DNA of 5,503 nt from a virus, in the IMG/VR virus record IMGVR_UViG_3300029478_000049, positions 1-5,503 of that record. One strand, given 5' to 3'. Below the pieces are notes generated by a model that worked only from the letters and a program-made list of their open reading frames with translations, ran no database searches and had not been told where the DNA came from. This document shows positions 1 through 5,503 of the stretch, piece by piece (position 1 is the first letter of the stretch; each line of letters starts with the position of its first letter). Position numbers and translations under genes: made by a program.

Positions 1-77
1 AGACTGCTAAAATGTAGTTGTAAGGTACGCTTGCCCGCTTTCTCATTCTGTGGTATAATCAACACAAGGCAAGTTGT
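1..77. repeat. Terminal redundancy: 1-77 is identical to 5427-5503. The sequence is a circular genome of 5426 nt written with a 77-nt overlap.
   Basis: Direct comparison of the first and last 77 nt (agactgctaaaatgtagttgtaaggtacgc...caaggcaagttgt) shows an exact match. Confidence 0.95.
31..59 (+). promoter_or_regulatory. Candidate sigma70 promoter with an extended -10 element. TTGCCC at 31-36, a 17-nt spacer, TGg at 51-53 and TATAAT at 54-59.
   Basis: The -10 hexamer matches consensus perfectly and is preceded by the TGn extended -10 motif. The -35 is weak (TTG only). The element lies in the long non-coding region upstream of VP3 and is also present in the repeat copy at 5457-5485. Confidence 0.4.
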
Positions 78-725: not shown

Positions 726-764
726 TTTATATGCTAATATTCACTTATGTAGAATAATAACCTT

Positions 765-812
765 GTCACCTTGACCAGTTACCTACTTGATAGTAACTGG
801 TCAAGGTGACAC
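765..812. other. Perfect 19-bp inverted repeat. The arms are TGTCACCTTGACCAGTTAC (765-783) and GTAACTGGTCAAGGTGACA (794-812), with a 10-nt loop CTACTTGATA (784-793). Candidate origin or structural signal in the VP3-VP1 intergenic region.
   Basis: Reverse complementarity was verified base by base, and the repeat breaks exactly at 764/813. The loop plus the start of the right arm reads ACTTGATAGTAAC. This resembles the phiX174 gpA origin core CAACTTG^ATATTAATAAC, where the nick falls between G and A. Confidence 0.6.
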
Positions 813-933: not shown

Positions 934-2610
934 ATGGCTCGTGATATTCGTGTTAATCAGTCGCATTTCGCGATGATTCCACAAGCTAATATTCGCCGCT
1001 CCGTGTTCGATAGAAGTCATGTTTATAAGACAACCTTTAATGAAGGCCAGCTTATTCCTTACTTTGTCGACGAAGTAATTCCAGGCGATACGTTCACTCT
1101 TAATCCCGTGGAGTTCTGTCGTTTGGCTACTCCGGTTGTTCCGTTTATGGATAACATTTATATTGAAAGTTTTTTCTTTTTCGTTCCGTCCCGTCTTGTC
1201 TATGATAAATGGGTGAATCTTTGCGGTGAGCAGGAAAATCCTGAAGATTCTACTGACTATTTAGTTCCTACTGTTTCTTTAACCGGCGATATGACAAACA
1301 AGCTCCCCGATTATATGGGTATTGCTTGCAGTAATGGCACTTTCAATAATATTTCTGTTAATTGTTTGCCGTTCCGCTCGTATTGGCTCATTTGGAATGA
1401 GTGGTTCCGCGATGAGAACCTGCAAAAGTCTGTTAAGGTTAGCAAAGGCGAAACTAACACTGTTCTTGATCCTATGGGACAATCTACCGCTAACCCTAAT
1501 TATGGTTTGCCGTCCGGTGTATCTAATTGGTATGACCCGGCTCCTCGTGGAAAAAGATATGACTATTTCACCGGTGCGCTGCCTTGGCCGCAGAAAGGTC
1601 CGGCTGTTGATTTGCCTTTAGGTACATCTGCTAATTTGTCTTTGGCTTCCGGAGCTACTATCAGTTTACCTAGTGCTTCCATGTATAATTCTTCTGACGG
1701 CAGGCAGCATAAAGCAACCGGTATTCTTACTAATGGTTCTCCTGCCGGTGGCATTTATACTTACGAAACTAATTCTACTTCATGGACTGACAAAGCTACT
1801 TCTAATGTGCCGGTTTCCGGTATTAATGGTTGGTCTGTTGATTTAACATCAGCTACCTCTATAACAATTAATTCGCTTCGTCAAGCGTTTATGCTCCAAA
1901 GATACTATGAAATTGATGCTCGTGGTGGTACTCGTTATACTGAAAAACTTCAAGCGCATTTTGGCGTAACTAATCCGGATGCACGGCTTCAACGTCCTGA
2001 GTTTCTCGGCTCGCATAGTAGCATGATGAATATTAATCCGGTTACTCAAACAAGCTCAACCGATTCTACCACTCCACAAGGTAATTTAGCTGCATACGGC
2101 CTTAACGCCCAGCGTTATCATGCCTTTACGAAATCCTTTAGTGAATTTGGTTATGTAATAGGTTTAATAAATGTGCGTGCTGACTTAACTTACCAGCAAG
2201 GTATTAATAAAATGTGGCTGCGTTCTGATGTACTCGACTTCTATTGGCCGTCCTTTGCTCATTTAGGAGAACAGGCTATTCAAAACATTGAAATTTATTG
2301 CCAAGGAAATGAAGATGATAAAAAGGTATTTGGCTATCAAGAACGCTATGCAGAATATCGTTATAAGCCGTCTTTGATTACCGGTCAATTCCGCTCAACC
2401 TATAAAGAACCTTTAGACATTTGGCATTTGTCACAGAAATTTGCTACGCTGCCTACGCTTTCGGATGAGTTTATTCAAGACCACCCGCCTATTAGTCGCG
2501 TAGTTGCTGTTTCGTCCTATCCTCATTTCTTGTTAGATGTCAAATTTAACTTGAAATGCATTCGTCCTATGCCTATGTATGGTATACCCGGCATGATGGG
2601 TCATTTCTAA
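934..2610 (+). CDS. Major capsid protein VP1, the F-protein family of Microviridae. 558 aa.
   Basis: AAGGAG at 919-924, 9 nt before the ATG. The N-terminus MARDIRVNQSHFAMIPQANIRRSVFDRSHVYKTTFNEGQLIPYFVDEVIPGDTF matches the highly conserved start of the microvirus F/VP1 jelly-roll capsid protein (...FDRSH..KTTF..G.LIP...DEVLPGDT...). The length is typical of gokushovirus VP1. Confidence 0.95.
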   Translation: MARDIRVNQSHFAMIPQANIRRSVFDRSHVYKTTFNEGQLIPYFVDEVIPGDTFTLNPVEFCRLATPVVPFMDNIYIESFFFFVPSRLVYDKWVNLCGEQENPEDSTDYLVPTVSLTGDMTNKLPDYMGIACSNGTFNNISVNCLPFRSYWLIWNEWFRDENLQKSVKVSKGETNTVLDPMGQSTANPNYGLPSGVSNWYDPAPRGKRYDYFTGALPWPQKGPAVDLPLGTSANLSLASGATISLPSASMYNSSDGRQHKATGILTNGSPAGGIYTYETNSTSWTDKATSNVPVSGINGWSVDLTSATSITINSLRQAFMLQRYYEIDARGGTRYTEKLQAHFGVTNPDARLQRPEFLGSHSSMMNINPVTQTSSTDSTTPQGNLAAYGLNAQRYHAFTKSFSEFGYVIGLINVRADLTYQQGINKMWLRSDVLDFYWPSFAHLGEQAIQNIEIYCQGNEDDKKVFGYQERYAEYRYKPSLITGQFRSTYKEPLDIWHLSQKFATLPTLSDEFIQDHPPISRVVAVSSYPHFLLDVKFNLKCIRPMPMYGIPGMMGHF

Positions 2611-2626: not shown

Positions 2627-3427
2627 ATGGGTTCCTTTCTTGGCTCTGCTGCTGGAGCTTTTGCTGGTGGCATTTCGTCTATCATTGGCGGTGCTCTTTC
2701 TAACTCTGCTGCTCGCCATGCTGCAACGGTAGCTAATCAGCGTAATATTTATAACTATCAACATCGTTATCAATGGGCTATGGAAGATATGCAAAAAGCT
2801 GGTCTTAATCCTATGTTAGCTGCTACGCAAGGCATTGGTGGTTCTGTTAATGGTGCTTCTGCTCTCTCTGCTAATTACAATTTAGGTGAAGGTGTTACTG
2901 CTGGTATGTCGGCTTCTGCTGCTGGTAACTCCGCTAAGGCTGCTAATCGTCAAGCTCAGGTTGCCGAAAAGATGAGTGATGAACAGATTAAAAATTTGGC
3001 TGCTCAAACTATTCTAGCTGGCTCCAGTGCTAAAAAATATGATGCTGAAACCTATGGTATTTCTGTTGCCAATAAATTGGCTACTGATTCTTATAACGAC
3101 AATTTGGCTTTAGTCAAGCAGAATTTAGCCAATGCTCAGAAGCAAGGCGAATATATCGATGCTCAGAAAGCTAGTCAAATGTATATGATGAATGTGGTTA
3201 TGCCCGCTCAAGCTGCTATGATGTATGCTCAAGGTAATGCTGCTAACAGCTCTGCCGCTTATAATGCGCAGCTGTCCAATGTTGCAAAAGCTGATTACGA
3301 TTATAAAACTTCTCGTAATGCCGATTATAGAAATCTTGGTCTTTCAGATGATGGTTTGCCATGGAATACCATTGGCCGTGCTGCTAATCGCTTGTTTTCT
3401 AGCATTTCTAACTATTTTTCTAAATGA
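2627..3427 (+). CDS. VP2-like minor capsid / DNA pilot protein. 266 aa, Gly/Ala/Ser/Asn-rich.
   Basis: AAGGAG at 2613-2618 with 8-nt spacing. The gene lies immediately downstream of VP1, as in gokushoviruses. The composition is low-complexity, with a G/A-rich N-terminus and a coiled-coil-like middle, typical of VP2 / H-protein analogues. The call rests on position and composition rather than a specific motif. Confidence 0.7.
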   Translation: MGSFLGSAAGAFAGGISSIIGGALSNSAARHAATVANQRNIYNYQHRYQWAMEDMQKAGLNPMLAATQGIGGSVNGASALSANYNLGEGVTAGMSASAAGNSAKAANRQAQVAEKMSDEQIKNLAAQTILAGSSAKKYDAETYGISVANKLATDSYNDNLALVKQNLANAQKQGEYIDAQKASQMYMMNVVMPAQAAMMYAQGNAANSSAAYNAQLSNVAKADYDYKTSRNADYRNLGLSDDGLPWNTIGRAANRLFSSISNYFSK

Positions 3428-3438
3428 GGTGATTAATT

Positions 3439-3708
3439 ATGTCAAACAAAACTACTGCTATTTTGACTTTTCTCGTATCCACAGTTATTCCGTTCATCCA
3501 AGAGGTTGTTGATTTTATTGACATGTTTCGTACCGGCAAGTATAACCGTGAAGGCTCTGCAAGTCTTAAAGCTATCTCTTTGGCCATGCAGGATGATTTG
3601 GTTAACATGCAGAAAAGAGGTACTGACGATGTAAACGGGTTTCGCCACGCGGCAGCAGCTGCGCAAGAAGAGAAAAGTTACTCCCGCTTTTTGGGAAAAA
3701 ATAATTAA
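3439..3708 (+). CDS. Hypothetical 89-aa protein with a predicted N-terminal transmembrane helix (TTAILTFLVSTVIPFIQEVV) and a charged C-terminal tail.
   Basis: GAGGTG at 3426-3431 lies 7 nt before the ATG and overlaps the VP2 stop. The reading frame does not overlap its neighbours. Its hydrophobic N-terminus is unlike any structural microvirus protein. See findings for the lysis hypothesis. Confidence 0.6.
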   Translation: MSNKTTAILTFLVSTVIPFIQEVVDFIDMFRTGKYNREGSASLKAISLAMQDDLVNMQKRGTDDVNGFRHAAAAAQEEKSYSRFLGKNN

Positions 3709-3746
3709 CCTTTTAACCCTTGGTATTTATTTAAGGAGTAAATGTC

Positions 3747-3860
3747 ATGAAAAGAAGTAGAATTTCTCGCGGCAGTTCTCTTCGGAACTTTCGCAATCAT
3801 GCTGTTCCGCGGCTTAAAAATCTTAAATCTCGTAACATGCGCGGCGGTATCCGCATGTAA
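3747..3860 (+). CDS. Small highly basic 37-aa protein, MKRSRISRGSSLRNFRNHAVPRLKNLKSRNMRGGIRM. It is likely a DNA-binding / packaging protein, analogous to phiX174 J or to Chlamydia-phage ORF8.
   Basis: AAGGAG at 3733-3738 lies 8 nt upstream of the ATG at 3747, and the stop is TAA at 3858-3860. 12 of 37 residues are Arg/Lys. The ORF lies between the structural genes and rep, where gokushoviruses encode their small basic DNA-binding protein. It is below the 60-aa cutoff of the supplied ORF track. Confidence 0.55.
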   Translation: MKRSRISRGSSLRNFRNHAVPRLKNLKSRNMRGGIRM

Positions 3861-3877: not shown

Positions 3878-4822
3878 ATGACTTGCCTTAACCCGATGTT
3901 TGCTAAACGCTCTGCTGTGCCTAACGCTAACGGCAAGTATGAGCTATCAAATTTTGTTGCTTATCGTCAGTTGTTCGGTAAATCTCTTGAATATGCCAAG
4001 GCTGAATTAGCTAATAATTATGCTGTTGTCGTTCCGTGCGGTCAATGCTTAGGCTGCCGTTTGGATAAAGCCAATGACTGGGCCATTCGGTGCGTTCATG
4101 AGGCAAAACTGCATTTGCATAATTGTTTTATAACGCTAACCTATAACGATGATTGCCTTCCAGCTGACTGTTCGTTGCATCGTGATCATTTGCAGCTTTT
4201 TTTCAAGCGACTTCGTCGCTACCTTGATTATCATGATAATTCTAAGATACGTTTTCTGTGTTGCGGTGAGTATGGCGATCTTAATCGCAGGCCGCATTAT
4301 CATATTCTTTGCTTTGGTTGGTTTCCTGCTGATGTCCGGAAAGTTTCGGCGTTGACAGCTGGTTACAATCTCTTTCGTTCTCCCACTCTGGAGCGGCTTT
4401 GGCCGTATGGTTTTAATACTGTAGGTGCTATTACCTTTGAATCTGCCCGCTATGTCGCAAAATATAGTCTTAAAAAGCAGACCGGTAAAAATGCCTGCAT
4501 GTATGACGCTCTAGGTATATCTCCGGAGTTTGTCGGCAGCTCTCTTAAGCCAGGTATAGGAGCTGATTATTTTGGCCGTTATTCTGAGGATATTTTTAAA
4601 CTAGGCTTTGTTACAATTAATGGAGCTAAGTATAAAATACCTCGCTATTATCAAACTTTATTTGAGCGCAGCAATCCCGTTTGGTATAGTATATACAAGC
4701 AGCAAAGGGCCGAAAATGCTAAGGCTGCTGTTATTGATTGTAAAAGGCTGGAAGCCAAGGAGAAGATTTTAAAGCACCGGCAGGAACAATTTGAGCGTGA
4801 TTTTGATAATTTAGGTTTGTAA
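3878..4822 (+). CDS. Replication initiation protein VP4, a gpA-like rolling-circle endonuclease. It is 314 aa from the ATG at 3878, or 317 aa from an alternative in-frame GTG at 3869.
   Basis: The translation shows rolling-circle Rep motifs: CFITLTY (motif I), PHYHILCFG (the HxH metal-binding motif II) and ARYVAKYSLKK (the catalytic YxxKY motif III). The N-terminus MTCLNPM is typical of microvirus Rep proteins. No strong SD is present, so initiation may be coupled to the upstream small ORF, which ends at 3860. Confidence 0.9.
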   Translation: MTCLNPMFAKRSAVPNANGKYELSNFVAYRQLFGKSLEYAKAELANNYAVVVPCGQCLGCRLDKANDWAIRCVHEAKLHLHNCFITLTYNDDCLPADCSLHRDHLQLFFKRLRRYLDYHDNSKIRFLCCGEYGDLNRRPHYHILCFGWFPADVRKVSALTAGYNLFRSPTLERLWPYGFNTVGAITFESARYVAKYSLKKQTGKNACMYDALGISPEFVGSSLKPGIGADYFGRYSEDIFKLGFVTINGAKYKIPRYYQTLFERSNPVWYSIYKQQRAENAKAAVIDCKRLEAKEKILKHRQEQFERDFDNLGL

Positions 4823-4877
4823 AAGTTGTAAAAAGTTGCAAAAAGTTGTTGACAGTTGCTATTTCACATGATATAAT
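4821..4877 (+). promoter_or_regulatory. Strong sigma70 promoter: TTGACA (4849-4854), a 17-nt spacer, then TG-a-TATAAT (TG at 4869-4870, hexamer at 4872-4877). It is preceded by three 10-bp tandem A-tract repeats, AAAAGTTGYW, at 4821/4831/4841, giving an UP-element-like phased bend.
   Basis: Both hexamers match consensus exactly, the spacer length is optimal and an extended -10 TG is present. The A4-5 tracts repeat at exactly 10-bp periodicity, spanning about -30 to -60. The predicted transcription start is near 4884. The downstream gene has GAGGT at 4891-4895 and ATG at 4903. Confidence 0.75.
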
Positions 4878-4902
4878 ATATACAGAAAGTGAGGTAAGCA
4901 AT

Positions 4903-5163
4903 ATGTTAAAAGATTACTATTTTTCTTCTTTCATTGGTACTAAATGCACTCTTAAGCCTTCTACTATTAAAGCTGTTGAGGAAATTCTTTCTCGCCAAGC
5001 ATGTTTTCCTACCTATGGACGTTATCGCTCTTATTGCAAACGTGTTCAATCATTTGGCAAATGTTTCCTTTGGTGTGGTTTTTACTTTGAAGTTGCTGAA
5101 GGGTGCAGAAATAAGCTTTTGTGTATTTTAAAAGCTGATTCTCTAGATAATGAGGTGAATTAA
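4903..5163 (+). CDS. Hypothetical Cys-rich 86-aa protein with 7 Cys.
   Basis: ATG at 4903 with GAGGT 8 nt upstream, directly downstream of the consensus promoter. The 105-aa version in the ORF track starts at a TTG inside the promoter, so I place the start at 4903. There is no recognisable family. Either this ORF or the next may be the VP5 / protein-C analogue. Confidence 0.55.
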   Translation: MLKDYYFSSFIGTKCTLKPSTIKAVEEILSRQACFPTYGRYRSYCKRVQSFGKCFLWCGFYFEVAEGCRNKLLCILKADSLDNEVN

Positions 5164-5503
5164 TGAAACTTTATTGTATTTATGACCGCAAGGGTGAGCT
5201 GATGAACCCGCCTTTCGTTCAACAAAATAATGCTATGGCTATCCGTCAATTTCAAATTATGGTTAATCAGGCTTCTACTCCGGAGCGTTCCAATATTATC
5301 CATGATTATCATGAGGACTTCGTTCTGATGTATCTTGGCGAATTTAATGATAAAACGTGTGAATTTTCCCCACAAAATCCCACTTTGCTTTTGTCTACCG
5401 CTACGGAACTATTGACTCCCCCCCCCAGACTGCTAAAATGTAGTTGTAAGGTACGCTTGCCCGCTTTCTCATTCTGTGGTATAATCAACACAAGGCAAGT
5501 TGT
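5163..5503 (+). CDS. Hypothetical small protein, MKLYCIYDRKGELMNPPFVQQNNAMAIRQF.... As written, the frame runs through the C9 tract and across the circular junction to a TGA at window position 154-156, giving 139 aa. With C8 or C10 it would stop at 5434-5436 or 5441-5443, giving about 90 aa.
   Basis: ATG at 5163 overlaps the upstream stop (TAATG), with GAGGTG at 5152-5157. The first ~85 aa look like a genuine small phage protein. The segment after the poly-C is low-complexity and overlaps the promoter and terminator elements. The true C-terminus therefore depends on the C-tract length. Not in the ORF track, because it runs off the window end. Confidence 0.5.
   Translation, partial: MKLYCIYDRKGELMNPPFVQQNNAMAIRQFQIMVNQASTPERSNIIHDYHEDFVLMYLGEFNDKTCEFSPQNPTLLLSTATELLTPPPRLLKCSCKVRLPAFSFCGIINTRQV
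5418..5426. repeat. C9 homopolymer immediately upstream of the circular junction.
   Basis: Nine consecutive C read at 5418-5426. It sits at the contig break point and inside the last ORF. Confidence 0.9.
5427..5503. repeat. Second copy of the terminal redundancy. Together with 1-77 this is a circularisation signature of the assembly.
   Basis: Exact 77/77 identity with positions 1-77. Confidence 0.95.

What the first reader, a model, noticed from the sequence alone, without database searches (positions are those of the whole stretch)
3439..3708. Free-standing 89-aa membrane protein between VP2 and rep: candidate single-gene lysis protein
Gokushoviruses generally lack an identifiable E gene, and their lysis mechanism is largely unknown. 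This ORF has its own strong SD and a non-overlapping frame. Its N-terminal ~20-residue hydrophobic helix is followed by a charged tail. phiX174 E (91 aa, an MraY inhibitor) has the same architecture, but here the gene is not overprinted on another gene. It has no plausible virion-structural role.
Basis: inference. Interest (0 to 1): 0.65.

Follow-up and report, generated by a model that had tools for sequence, protein, structure and literature searches.

The report
Conserved small membrane-helix protein of gut gokushoviruses
The 89-codon gene after the pilot-protein gene of this small gut phage is real and strongly conserved, and probably encodes a small membrane protein. It is a reasonable but unproven candidate for the unknown cell-bursting function of these phages.

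Summary
ORF 3439-3708 (+) is a free-standing gene with a GAGGTG Shine-Dalgarno 7 nt upstream.

- **Where it occurs:** it belongs to a small family (PHROG 23638, "unknown function") seen only on roughly 4-6 kb gokushovirus-type contigs or short fragments, mostly from gut samples. In every genome inspected it lies directly after VP2 and before an Arg-rich VP8-like ORF and the rep gene.
- **Selection:** the first ~27-33 residues (MSNKTTxILTFxVSxVxPFIQEVVDxI) are nearly invariant, with dN/dS 0.02-0.04 despite abundant synonymous change. They are 81% identical between clades whose capsid proteins are 54% identical. The middle is variable and a short C-terminal SRF[LF]G motif is conserved.
- **Membrane helix:** the hydrophobic core is only 15 residues (KD19 1.78, against 2.79 for phiX174 E) and the tail is net neutral. 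The architecture is therefore only loosely E-like, and there is no sequence or fold relation to E, holins or any Pfam family.
- **Other lysis candidates:** these genomes encode no endolysin, and the hydrophobic overprinted ORFs are explained by T-rich third codon positions.

A late lysis or egress role is my best guess (~0.35). A VP2-associated virion or DNA-delivery role, or superinfection exclusion, remains open. Published six-gene gokushoviruses without this gene still lyse, so it cannot be the general answer.

The parts
3426..3431 (+). Shine-Dalgarno GAGGTG of ORF89. It overlaps the VP2 stop codon (3425-3427) and lies 7 nt upstream of the ATG.
   Evidence: Read from the sequence. The initiation region is unstructured.
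3439..3708 (+). ORF89 coding sequence (89 aa plus stop), a member of PHROG 23638.
   Evidence: Purifying selection shown. Always open in relatives.
3439..3537 (+). Nearly invariant N-terminal module (residues 1-33): MSNKTTAILTFLVSTVIPFIQEVVDFIDMFRTG.
   Evidence: Alignments. dN/dS 0.02-0.04. Residues 1-27 are 81% identical to the 79-aa clade, against 54% for VP1.
3451..3510 (+). Putative membrane helix (residues 5-24). The hydrophobic core is T6-I20, P18 is invariant, and T10/S14/Q21/E22/D25 are conserved polar residues.
   Evidence: KD19 1.78. AlphaFold2 helix 3-32 with pLDDT 73-83. Per-column conservation.
3547..3621 (+). Second predicted helix (residues 37-61), amphipathic, variable in sequence and length between clades.
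   Evidence: helix 37-61, pLDDT 63-71. Variability shown.
3682..3696 (+). Conserved C-terminal motif S82-R-F-L-G86 ([W/Y]SRF[LF]G followed by basic residues across the family).
   Evidence: S82, R83 and F84 are invariant in A1. The motif is seen in distant members.
2627..3427 (+). VP2 DNA pilot protein gene, immediately upstream. In some relatives it overlaps the ORF start by 8 nt.
   Evidence: phrog_8693, E=7e-40. Synteny.
3747..3860 (+). 37-aa Arg-rich VP8/J-like ORF (12 K+R, C-terminus MRGGIRM) with an AAGGAG Shine-Dalgarno at 3733-3738.
   Evidence: phrog_10695, E=7.9e-5. Composition. Homologous ...MRGG[IF]R[LIM] ORFs sit before rep in other gokushoviruses.
3878..4822 (+). VP4 replication initiator (314 aa from ATG 3878; the ORF listing starts it at GTG 3869).
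   Evidence: phrog_942, E=7.5e-107, and PF23343. Relatives have 314-aa gene calls.

Best explanation
ORF89 is a genuine accessory gene of one lineage of gut gokushoviruses. It encodes a small protein that most likely sits in the host cytoplasmic membrane.

**Shown**
- It is co-oriented with the structural genes VP3-VP1-VP2, and no terminator-like site was found between them.
- It has a strong, unstructured ribosome-binding site abutting the VP2 stop codon.
- Its selected core is the first ~27-33 residues, which are predicted to form one long helix.

**Inferred**
- It is made late and in proportion to VP2.
- The N-terminal helix (about residues 5-24) inserts into the cytoplasmic membrane.
- Every face of the helix is conserved, including polar T10, S14, P18, Q21, E22 and D25. 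It is therefore packed against protein rather than lipid, either in a homo-oligomer or in a groove of a conserved host membrane protein.
- Accumulation of the protein then compromises the envelope and releases virions.

Two sub-mechanisms cannot be separated here. One is E- or LysM-like blockade of a conserved lipid-II-pathway membrane enzyme. The other is holin-like depolarisation that unleashes host autolysins, which would matter if the host is a Firmicute.
For: - **Real gene under strong purifying selection:**
- **N-terminal module is the constrained part:** dN/dS is 0.02-0.04 and the segment is 81% identical across clades with 54% VP1 and 39% VP4 identity. From my own knowledge, not tested here, this is the pattern of phiX174 E, where the N-terminal membrane domain carries the activity and the tail is replaceable.
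- **Hydrophobic helix:** KD19 is 1.6-2.06 across the family, against 1.33 at most in the soluble proteins of this phage. AlphaFold2 predicts helix 3-32. P18 is invariant.
- **No alternative lysis gene:** no peptidase or endolysin in 86 related genomes. Overprinted hydrophobic ORFs are expected from 48-58% T at third codon positions (P 0.3-0.7).
- **Literature:** the gokushovirus lysis function is unassigned (PMC7062461, PMC3394797). Putative lysis peptidases of other microviruses are inserted between VP2 and VP4 (PMC3394797, PMC9239249).
- **Same slot elsewhere:** in other gokushoviruses the slot holds unrelated small Shine-Dalgarno-preceded hydrophobic ORFs, for example a 37-aa peptide with KD19 2.53 in OM869522.
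Against: - No experiment and no homology to any lysis protein or holin.
- The hydrophobic core is only 15 residues and borderline for a transmembrane helix. No dedicated predictor was run.
- The strong, unoccluded ribosome-binding site predicts abundant synthesis. From my own knowledge, this is unlike the poorly translated E and MS2 L.
- The published six-gene gokushovirus set (VP4, VP5, VP3, VP1, VP2, VP8) lyses E. coli (PMC7062461). Only 20 phage-database records carry the family, against 2920 records that match this VP1.
- The gene lies between two virion-protein genes.
- The deep conservation is untypical of the fast-evolving Sgl proteins of ssRNA phages (my own knowledge).
Confidence: 0.35

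Rival explanations
1. Virion-associated or DNA-delivery accessory of the pilot protein VP2. ORF89 would be made together with VP2, packaged or assembled with it, and would use its hydrophobic helix to help insert the DNA-translocating structure into the host membrane at entry. Alternatively it could chaperone VP2 during assembly.
For: - The gene always lies immediately after VP2: 11 nt after the VP2 stop codon here and overlapping it by 8 nt in OP971933 and KT264819.
- It is flanked on the other side by the packaged DNA-binding VP8-like protein.
- VP2-like pilot proteins share its outline of an N-terminal membrane helix followed by helical regions (PMC3394797).
- All-round conservation of the helix and the conserved C-terminal SRF[LF]G motif would fit fixed viral partners.
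Against: - In KT264820 the gene is separated from VP2 by 120 nt, so coupling is not obligatory.
- Most gokushoviruses infect without it.
- VP2, the proposed partner, is far less conserved (42% identity between clades) than the ORF89 N-terminus (81%).
- There is no proteomic evidence.
Confidence: 0.25
2. A non-lytic host-membrane modulator, such as a superinfection-exclusion protein or a phiX174 K-like accessory. It would sit in the infected cell's membrane and block entry of further phage DNA, or tune burst size, and would be dispensable for lysis.
For: - It is an accessory gene restricted to one lineage.
- It is small and probably membrane-anchored.
- The flank charges are +1 on the N side and -1 to -2 on the C side. 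This weakly favours an N-in/C-out topology that would expose the variable C-terminal part at the outer face of the membrane.
- The variable middle region evolves faster (dN/dS 0.2-0.3) and carries indels, as expected for a surface involved in phage-phage or phage-host conflict.
Against: - dN/dS of 0.02-0.04 across divergent clades is unusually strict for a dispensable accessory.
- The ORF is intact in 81 of 81 family genomes examined.
- The topology inference rests on one or two charges.
Confidence: 0.15
3. Not a membrane protein. On this view it is a soluble helical-hairpin assembly or regulatory factor whose hydrophobic N-terminal helix is buried in a protein complex, for example with capsid or scaffold.
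For: - The hydrophobic core is only 15 residues, with Q21, E22 and D25 directly following.
- Conservation shows no lipid-facing variable stripe (helical periodicity P=0.81).
- AlphaFold2 predicts two helices (3-32 and 37-61) in sequence, consistent with a hairpin.
Against: - KD19 exceeds every soluble protein of the phage, across all family members.
- Substitutions within the core are hydrophobic-to-hydrophobic throughout.
- The AlphaFold2 confidence is modest (pLDDT 64, pTM 0.38) and no fold match supports a soluble domain.
Confidence: 0.12

Closest known systems
phiX174 protein E (single-gene lysis protein of Bullavirinae; MraY inhibitor)
   Same: - Similar size: 89 aa here, 91 aa for E.
- Encoded by a microvirus.
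- N-terminal hydrophobic helix containing a proline (P18 here is invariant; Pro21 of E is essential, from my own knowledge).
- The selectively constrained part is the N-terminal helix, while the remainder is variable.
   Different: - No sequence or profile similarity.
- The helix is far less hydrophobic: KD19 1.78 against 2.79.
- The tail is net neutral rather than strongly basic.
- It is a free-standing gene with a strong Shine-Dalgarno, not overprinted inside a scaffold gene.
- It has a conserved C-terminal SRF[LF]G motif.
- The target and any SlyD dependence are unknown.
Holins and pinholins of dsDNA phages (class III single-TMD type)
   Same: - Small protein with one predicted membrane helix rich in Thr and Ser.
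- Charged hydrophilic C-terminal part.
- Late, probably abundant expression.
   Different: - No holin family match.
- No endolysin anywhere in the genome or its relatives.
- No conserved dual-start motif: the upstream in-frame ATG is blocked by a TGA in this clade.
PHROG 23638 (unknown function)
   Same: Direct profile match, E=1.5e-14, covering residues 1-86. The same family appears as unannotated ORFs or 'hypothetical protein' in Human gut gokushovirus and Gokushovirus WZ-2015a records.
   Different: Nothing differs: this is the family it belongs to, and no function has been assigned to it.
Putative lysis accessory genes (M15 peptidases) of Alpavirinae and some gokushoviruses
   Same: In Alpavirinae several of these peptidases occupy the same genomic slot between VP2 and VP4 (PMC3394797). 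Lysis-associated accessory genes lie between VP1 and VP4 in other microvirus families (PMC9239249).
   Different: They are enzymes acquired from bacteria or dsDNA phages. ORF89 has no enzymatic domain and no cellular homologues.

Membership tests
phiX174 E / Microvirus lysis protein family | Sequence homology to protein E | tested here: not met
   No Pfam-A family matched at E<=1. No lysis or holin family matched at E<=10 for 18 members. That Pfam holds an E family (Microvir_lysis) is from my own knowledge.
phiX174 E / Microvirus lysis protein family | Strongly hydrophobic N-terminal transmembrane domain with a functionally essential proline | tested here: inconclusive
   P18 is invariant within an N-terminal hydrophobic helix. 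The core is only 15 residues and KD19 is 1.78 against 2.79 for E.
phiX174 E / Microvirus lysis protein family | Gene overprinted within the external scaffold gene D | tested here: not met
   The ORF is free-standing between VP2 and the VP8-like ORF. Gokushoviruses have no D gene.
phiX174 E / Microvirus lysis protein family | Basic cytoplasmic C-terminal domain | tested here: not met
   ORF89 has 11 K+R and 10 D+E, and the region right after the helix is acidic (-1 to -2). E has 14 K+R and 3 D+E.
phiX174 E / Microvirus lysis protein family | Inhibits MraY; requires SlyD | not testable with these tools
   Needs expression and suppressor genetics.
Single-gene lysis proteins (functional class) | Expression alone causes host lysis without muralytic activity | not testable with these tools
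   No enzymatic domain was found. The lysis phenotype is untested.
Holins | At least one transmembrane domain plus a charged C-terminus | tested here: inconclusive
   One borderline hydrophobic helix, and a tail that is charged but net neutral.
Holins | Genetically paired with an endolysin | tested here: not met
   No unassigned ORF of 100 aa or more resembling an enzyme in 86 related genomes. Gene calls in relatives show only VP1-5, rep and small ORFs.
PHROG 23638 | Significant full-length match to the family profile | tested here: met
   E=1.5e-14, 55 bits, residues 1-86 aligned to profile positions 1-73 of 79.
Gokushovirus VP5 (PF20577 Phage_ORF5) | Profile match and position downstream of VP4 | tested here: not met
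   VP5 is a different gene that starts at 5163 and runs across the window end. PF20577 hits that gene in relatives, not the 89-aa ORF. VP5 is annotated separately in relatives.

The most novel reading that the evidence does not exclude
ORF89 is the lysis effector of a gokushovirus lineage that infects Gram-positive gut Firmicutes. It would be a free-standing, non-overprinted single-gene lysis protein. Its deeply conserved, weakly hydrophobic helix would either dock into a conserved cell-wall-precursor membrane enzyme or depolarise the membrane to trigger host autolysins. This would be the first lysis mechanism defined for Gokushovirinae. To my knowledge it would also be the first 'protein antibiotic' from a phage of a monoderm host.
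Probability: 0.2. Interest if true: 0.8.

Novelty: new variant of a known kind. Interest (0 to 1): 0.45.

Why it matters
Gokushoviruses are among the most abundant ssDNA phages in gut and environmental viromes, and how they lyse their hosts is unknown (PMC7062461, PMC3394797).

- **A testable candidate.** This 89-aa protein is conserved, easy to synthesise, and has an unusually constrained 27-residue helix.
- **If it lyses cells.** The helix would point to a conserved and possibly druggable membrane target, as E did for MraY and LysM did for MurJ. That target might be in Firmicutes.
- **If it is instead a virion or entry factor.** It would add a component to the poorly understood gokushovirus DNA-delivery machinery.
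- **Limit on the stakes.** The family is confined to one lineage, and gokushoviruses without it also lyse, so it cannot be the general solution.

Tried and rejected
1. **Overprinted E-like genes as the true lysis gene.** Long hydrophobic ORFs lie inside VP1 (1322-1621), the VP2 3' end (3225-3512) and VP4 (4149-4355). All sit in the +1 shifted frame, whose second codon position is the host gene's T-rich third position (48-58% T). Synonymous-codon shuffles give equally long open runs (P 0.31-0.74). I rejected them as by-products.
2. **DNA- or RNA-level constraint behind the invariant N-terminus.** Rejected, because synonymous sites vary freely (dS 0.84 within the 89-aa clade).
3. **One conserved helix face and one lipid-facing variable face.** Not supported: the entropy periodicity at 100 degrees has P=0.81.
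4. **Identity with VP5.** Rejected, because VP5 is elsewhere.
5. **Fusion with VP2.** Rejected: the genes are in different frames and only overlap by 8 nt in some relatives.
6. **Fold and sequence searches.** Foldseek against PDB and BFVD gave nothing with E<=0.001, only generic helical hairpins. The PDB sequence profile gave only a Geobacter pilin at E=0.65, which I judged to be hydrophobic-helix noise. Pfam at E<=10 gave scattered noise.
7. **Cleavable signal peptide.** Unlikely by inspection (not run through a predictor): no small -3/-1 residues follow the hydrophobic region, and that region is far too conserved.
8. **Holin-like dual start.** The upstream in-frame ATG at 3424 is followed by an in-frame TGA in this clade.
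9. **Prophage or host context.** The only genome-collection hit is a free 5.5 kb contig binned into a Clostridiales MAG.
10. **Wimley-White octanol scale.** Uninformative, because capsid protein VP1 scored 'better' than ORF89.
11. **Remote homologues in the same slot.** None found in eight other gokushoviruses (hmmsearch --max).
12. **Antisense ORFs.** They are often open but not consistently (minimum 42 codons).

Full report
**Context**

The window is a complete circular gokushovirus genome. It has a 77-nt terminal overlap, so the unique sequence is 5426 nt, and its GC content is 40.8%. Profile searches give this gene map:

| Gene | Coordinates | Evidence |
|---|---|---|
| VP3 scaffold | 282-725 | PF09675 |
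| VP1 capsid | 934-2610 | PF02305 |
| VP2 pilot | 2627-3427 | phrog_8693 |
| ORF in question | 3439-3708 | phrog_23638 |
| Arg-rich VP8/J-like ORF (37 aa) | 3747-3860 | phrog_10695 |
| VP4 rep | 3878-4822 | phrog_942, PF23343 |
| Hypervariable small ORF | 4903-5163 | no family hit |
| VP5 | 5163, runs over the window end | PF20577 in relatives |

All of these genes except VP4 (and VP5, whose start I did not inspect) have AAGGAG-type Shine-Dalgarno sequences.

**Observation**

- A GAGGTG Shine-Dalgarno at 3426-3431 overlaps the VP2 stop codon and lies 7 nt before the ATG.
- The initiation region is unstructured.
- No terminator-like site separates the ORF from VP2 or from rep.

It is a real gene.
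- A search of 5.8 billion protein clusters found 88 homologous clusters, all on contigs under 10 kb.
- IMG/VR holds 241 loci.
- The identical protein is indexed in 37 blocks of the assembly collection, and 23 contigs carrying it were read.
- A filter-free profile search of 1.8 billion representatives found only 27 clusters, all small proteins.
- In the phage database only 20 records carry it, against 2920 records that match this VP1. All 20 are metagenomic gokushoviruses or unclassified Microviridae; those with a stated source come from human, monkey, pig, dog or mink feces or gut, and none has a cultured host.
- It is annotated there as nothing or as 'hypothetical protein'.
- PHROGs lists the family as phrog_23638, unknown function.

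**Anatomy and selection**

There are two main clades: an 89-aa form in 5.4-5.8 kb genomes and a 79-aa form in roughly 5.0-5.1 kb genomes.
- Across both clades and more distant members, the first ~27-33 residues are nearly invariant: MSNKTT[AM]ILTF[LI]VS[TV]V[IV]PFIQEVVD[FL]I. L9, F11, P18 and F19 are invariant, and K4 and D25 nearly so.
- The middle is variable and rich in indels.
- A short C-terminal motif, [W/Y]SRF[LF]G followed by basic residues, is conserved.

Codon analysis shows that this conservation acts on the protein.
- Invariant residues use up to five synonymous codons.
- Within clades, dN/dS is 0.02-0.04 for residues 1-33, with dS up to 0.84. It is 0.2-0.3 for the rest.
- Between the two clades, residues 1-27 are 81% identical. 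By comparison VP1 is 54%, VP2 42%, VP4 39%, VP3 38% and VP5 36% identical.
- Only the + frame is open in all 81 genomes. Antisense and shifted frames are not consistently open.

**Is it a membrane protein?**

- The hydrophobic core is 15 residues (T6-I20).
- The best 19-residue Kyte-Doolittle window scores 1.78, and 1.58-2.06 across the family.
- The soluble proteins of the same phage reach 1.33 at most, and phiX174 E reaches 2.79.
- AlphaFold2, with an 18-sequence alignment, predicts helices 3-32 and 37-61 and a disordered tail. Confidence is modest: pLDDT 64 overall and 73-83 over residues 1-30.
- Substitutions within the core are all hydrophobic-for-hydrophobic. However, conservation has no helical periodicity (P=0.81).

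Every face of the helix is therefore constrained, including polar T10, S14, Q21, E22 and D25. I read this as a helix packed against protein, either in an oligomer or in a target groove, rather than a simple lipid anchor. A buried helix in a soluble complex is not excluded.

The flank charges are +1 on the N side and -1 to -2 on the C side. They hint weakly at an N-in/C-out topology, the reverse of E (E's topology is from my own knowledge). I could not run dedicated transmembrane predictors.

**Relation to known proteins**

I found none.
- No Pfam family matched, even at E<=10 for 18 members.
- The best PDB sequence match was a pilin at E=0.65.
- There were no significant Foldseek matches in PDB or BFVD.
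- The resemblance to phiX174 E is limited to size, an N-terminal hydrophobic helix with a proline, and the concentration of constraint on that helix.
- It differs from E in hydrophobicity, tail charge, gene arrangement and translation signals.

**Is there another lysis candidate?**

No peptidase or endolysin is present in this genome or in 85 related genomes.

Several long, very hydrophobic ORFs are overprinted in VP1, VP2 and VP4, and one of them runs into the start of ORF89.
- All lie in the frame whose second codon position is the host gene's third position.
- That position is 48-58% T in these genes.
- Shuffling synonymous codons produces equally long open runs (P 0.31-0.74).

They give no evidence for an E-like embedded gene.

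**Context that bears on function**

- Gokushoviruses lack an identifiable lysis gene (PMC7062461, PMC3394797).
- In other microviruses, putative lysis peptidases are inserted between VP2 and VP4, and lysis-associated accessory genes lie between VP1 and VP4 (PMC3394797, PMC9239249).
- I sampled eight other gokushoviruses with 40-52% VP1 identity. Their VP2-VP4 slot is variable:
  - Some have only the VP8-like ORF.
  - One has four further small Shine-Dalgarno-preceded ORFs.
  - OM869522 carries 26-aa and 37-aa hydrophobic peptides, the latter with KD19 2.53.
  - None of these ORFs is related to ORF89.
- Against a necessary lysis role: the enterobacterial gokushovirus EC6098 is described with six genes (VP4, VP5, VP3, VP1, VP2, VP8) and lyses E. 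coli (PMC7062461).
- The tight packing with VP2 cuts both ways. The ORF overlaps the VP2 stop codon by 8 nt in OP971933 and KT264819 but lies 120 nt away in KT264820. This fits either a VP2 partner or coupling of a lysis gene to late structural expression, as in MS2 L (my own knowledge).

**Host**

The host is unknown. Four clues point weakly to Firmicutes:
- Strong Shine-Dalgarno use and an extended -10 consensus promoter.
- A relative's whole genome binned into a Clostridiales MAG.
- Published CRISPR-based assignment of a gut microvirus clade that also contains the Bdellovibrio gokushovirus phiMH2K to Firmicutes (PMC8530359).
- Faecalibacterium-like peptidases in some gut gokushoviruses (PMC3394797).

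If the host is a Firmicute, lysis without an endolysin would have to act through wall-synthesis inhibition or host autolysins. That is inference.

**Verdict**

The lysis interpretation is a legitimate but untested hypothesis, and two of its supporting arguments fail: 'same architecture as E' and 'no plausible virion role'.

| Explanation | Probability |
|---|---|
| Late membrane-acting lysis or egress effector | ~0.35 |
| VP2-associated virion or entry or assembly factor | ~0.25 |
| Other membrane modulator, such as superinfection exclusion | ~0.15 |
| Soluble assembly or regulatory factor | ~0.12 |
| Something else | remainder |

The family is catalogued but uncharacterised. If it is a lysis protein, it would be a new variant of the single-gene-lysis theme. 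I score interest as moderate (0.45): the candidate is well defined and cheap to test, but it is confined to one lineage and is not required for gokushovirus lysis in general.

Noticed in passing
window 1-77 and 5427-5503: A 77-nt direct terminal repeat, which is the overlap of a circular assembly. The genome is 5426 nt, and VP5 (start 5163) runs across the window end, so the ORF listing does not report it.
   Followed up: yes
window 764-811 (within intergenic 726-933): A perfect 19-20 bp hairpin in the VP3-VP1 intergenic region. The whole region folds far better than shuffles as ssDNA (z=-8.3). It could be a complementary-strand priming site or origin, or a terminator or RNA-stability element.
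   Followed up: partly
window 4849-4877; 94-124: A perfect TTGACA-17-TATAAT promoter with an extended -10 TG lies just after VP4. A 14-bp-stem terminator-like hairpin with a T-run lies just after the VP5 end. Together they suggest a discrete ORF86-VP5 transcription unit.
   Followed up: no
window 4903-5163: A Cys-rich 86-aa ORF with its own Shine-Dalgarno lies between VP4 and VP5. In many of the 89-aa-clade relatives inspected it begins MLKDY and then diverges completely; only 8 ORFs in the 86 genomes compared give a BLAST hit. It matches no PHROG or Pfam family. It looks like a hypervariable accessory gene.
   Followed up: partly
window 1322-1621, 3225-3512, 4149-4355: Long, very hydrophobic alternative-frame ORFs lie inside VP1, VP2 and VP4 and resemble overprinted membrane proteins. 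They are explained by 48-58% T at third codon positions (codon-shuffle P 0.3-0.7).
   Followed up: yes
L001 rel -213..+270 and L002 rel -252..+270 (relative to the ORF89 start): In two close relatives, a 1-nt spacing difference puts the hydrophobic alternative frame of the VP2 3' end in frame with ORF89, with no stop between them. This gives notional 160-173 aa ORFs. It is probably meaningless, but it shows how such a gene could acquire N-terminal extensions.
   Followed up: no
L090 (OM869522.1) 2393-2473 and 2655-2768; L087 (MG945721.1) 4838-4933: Other gokushoviruses carry unrelated small hydrophobic ORFs in the same VP2-VP4 slot. OM869522 has 26-aa and 37-aa ORFs, both preceded by a Shine-Dalgarno, the latter with KD19 2.53. 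MG945721 has a 31-aa ORF (KD19 1.82) with no obvious Shine-Dalgarno that overlaps the VP2 stop codon. The slot may be a general home for small membrane peptides.
   Followed up: partly
L083 (SFFE01000042.1): A complete 5.5 kb relative of this phage is deposited as a contig of a 'Clostridiales bacterium' MAG. This is either a binning artefact or a weak host clue.
   Followed up: no
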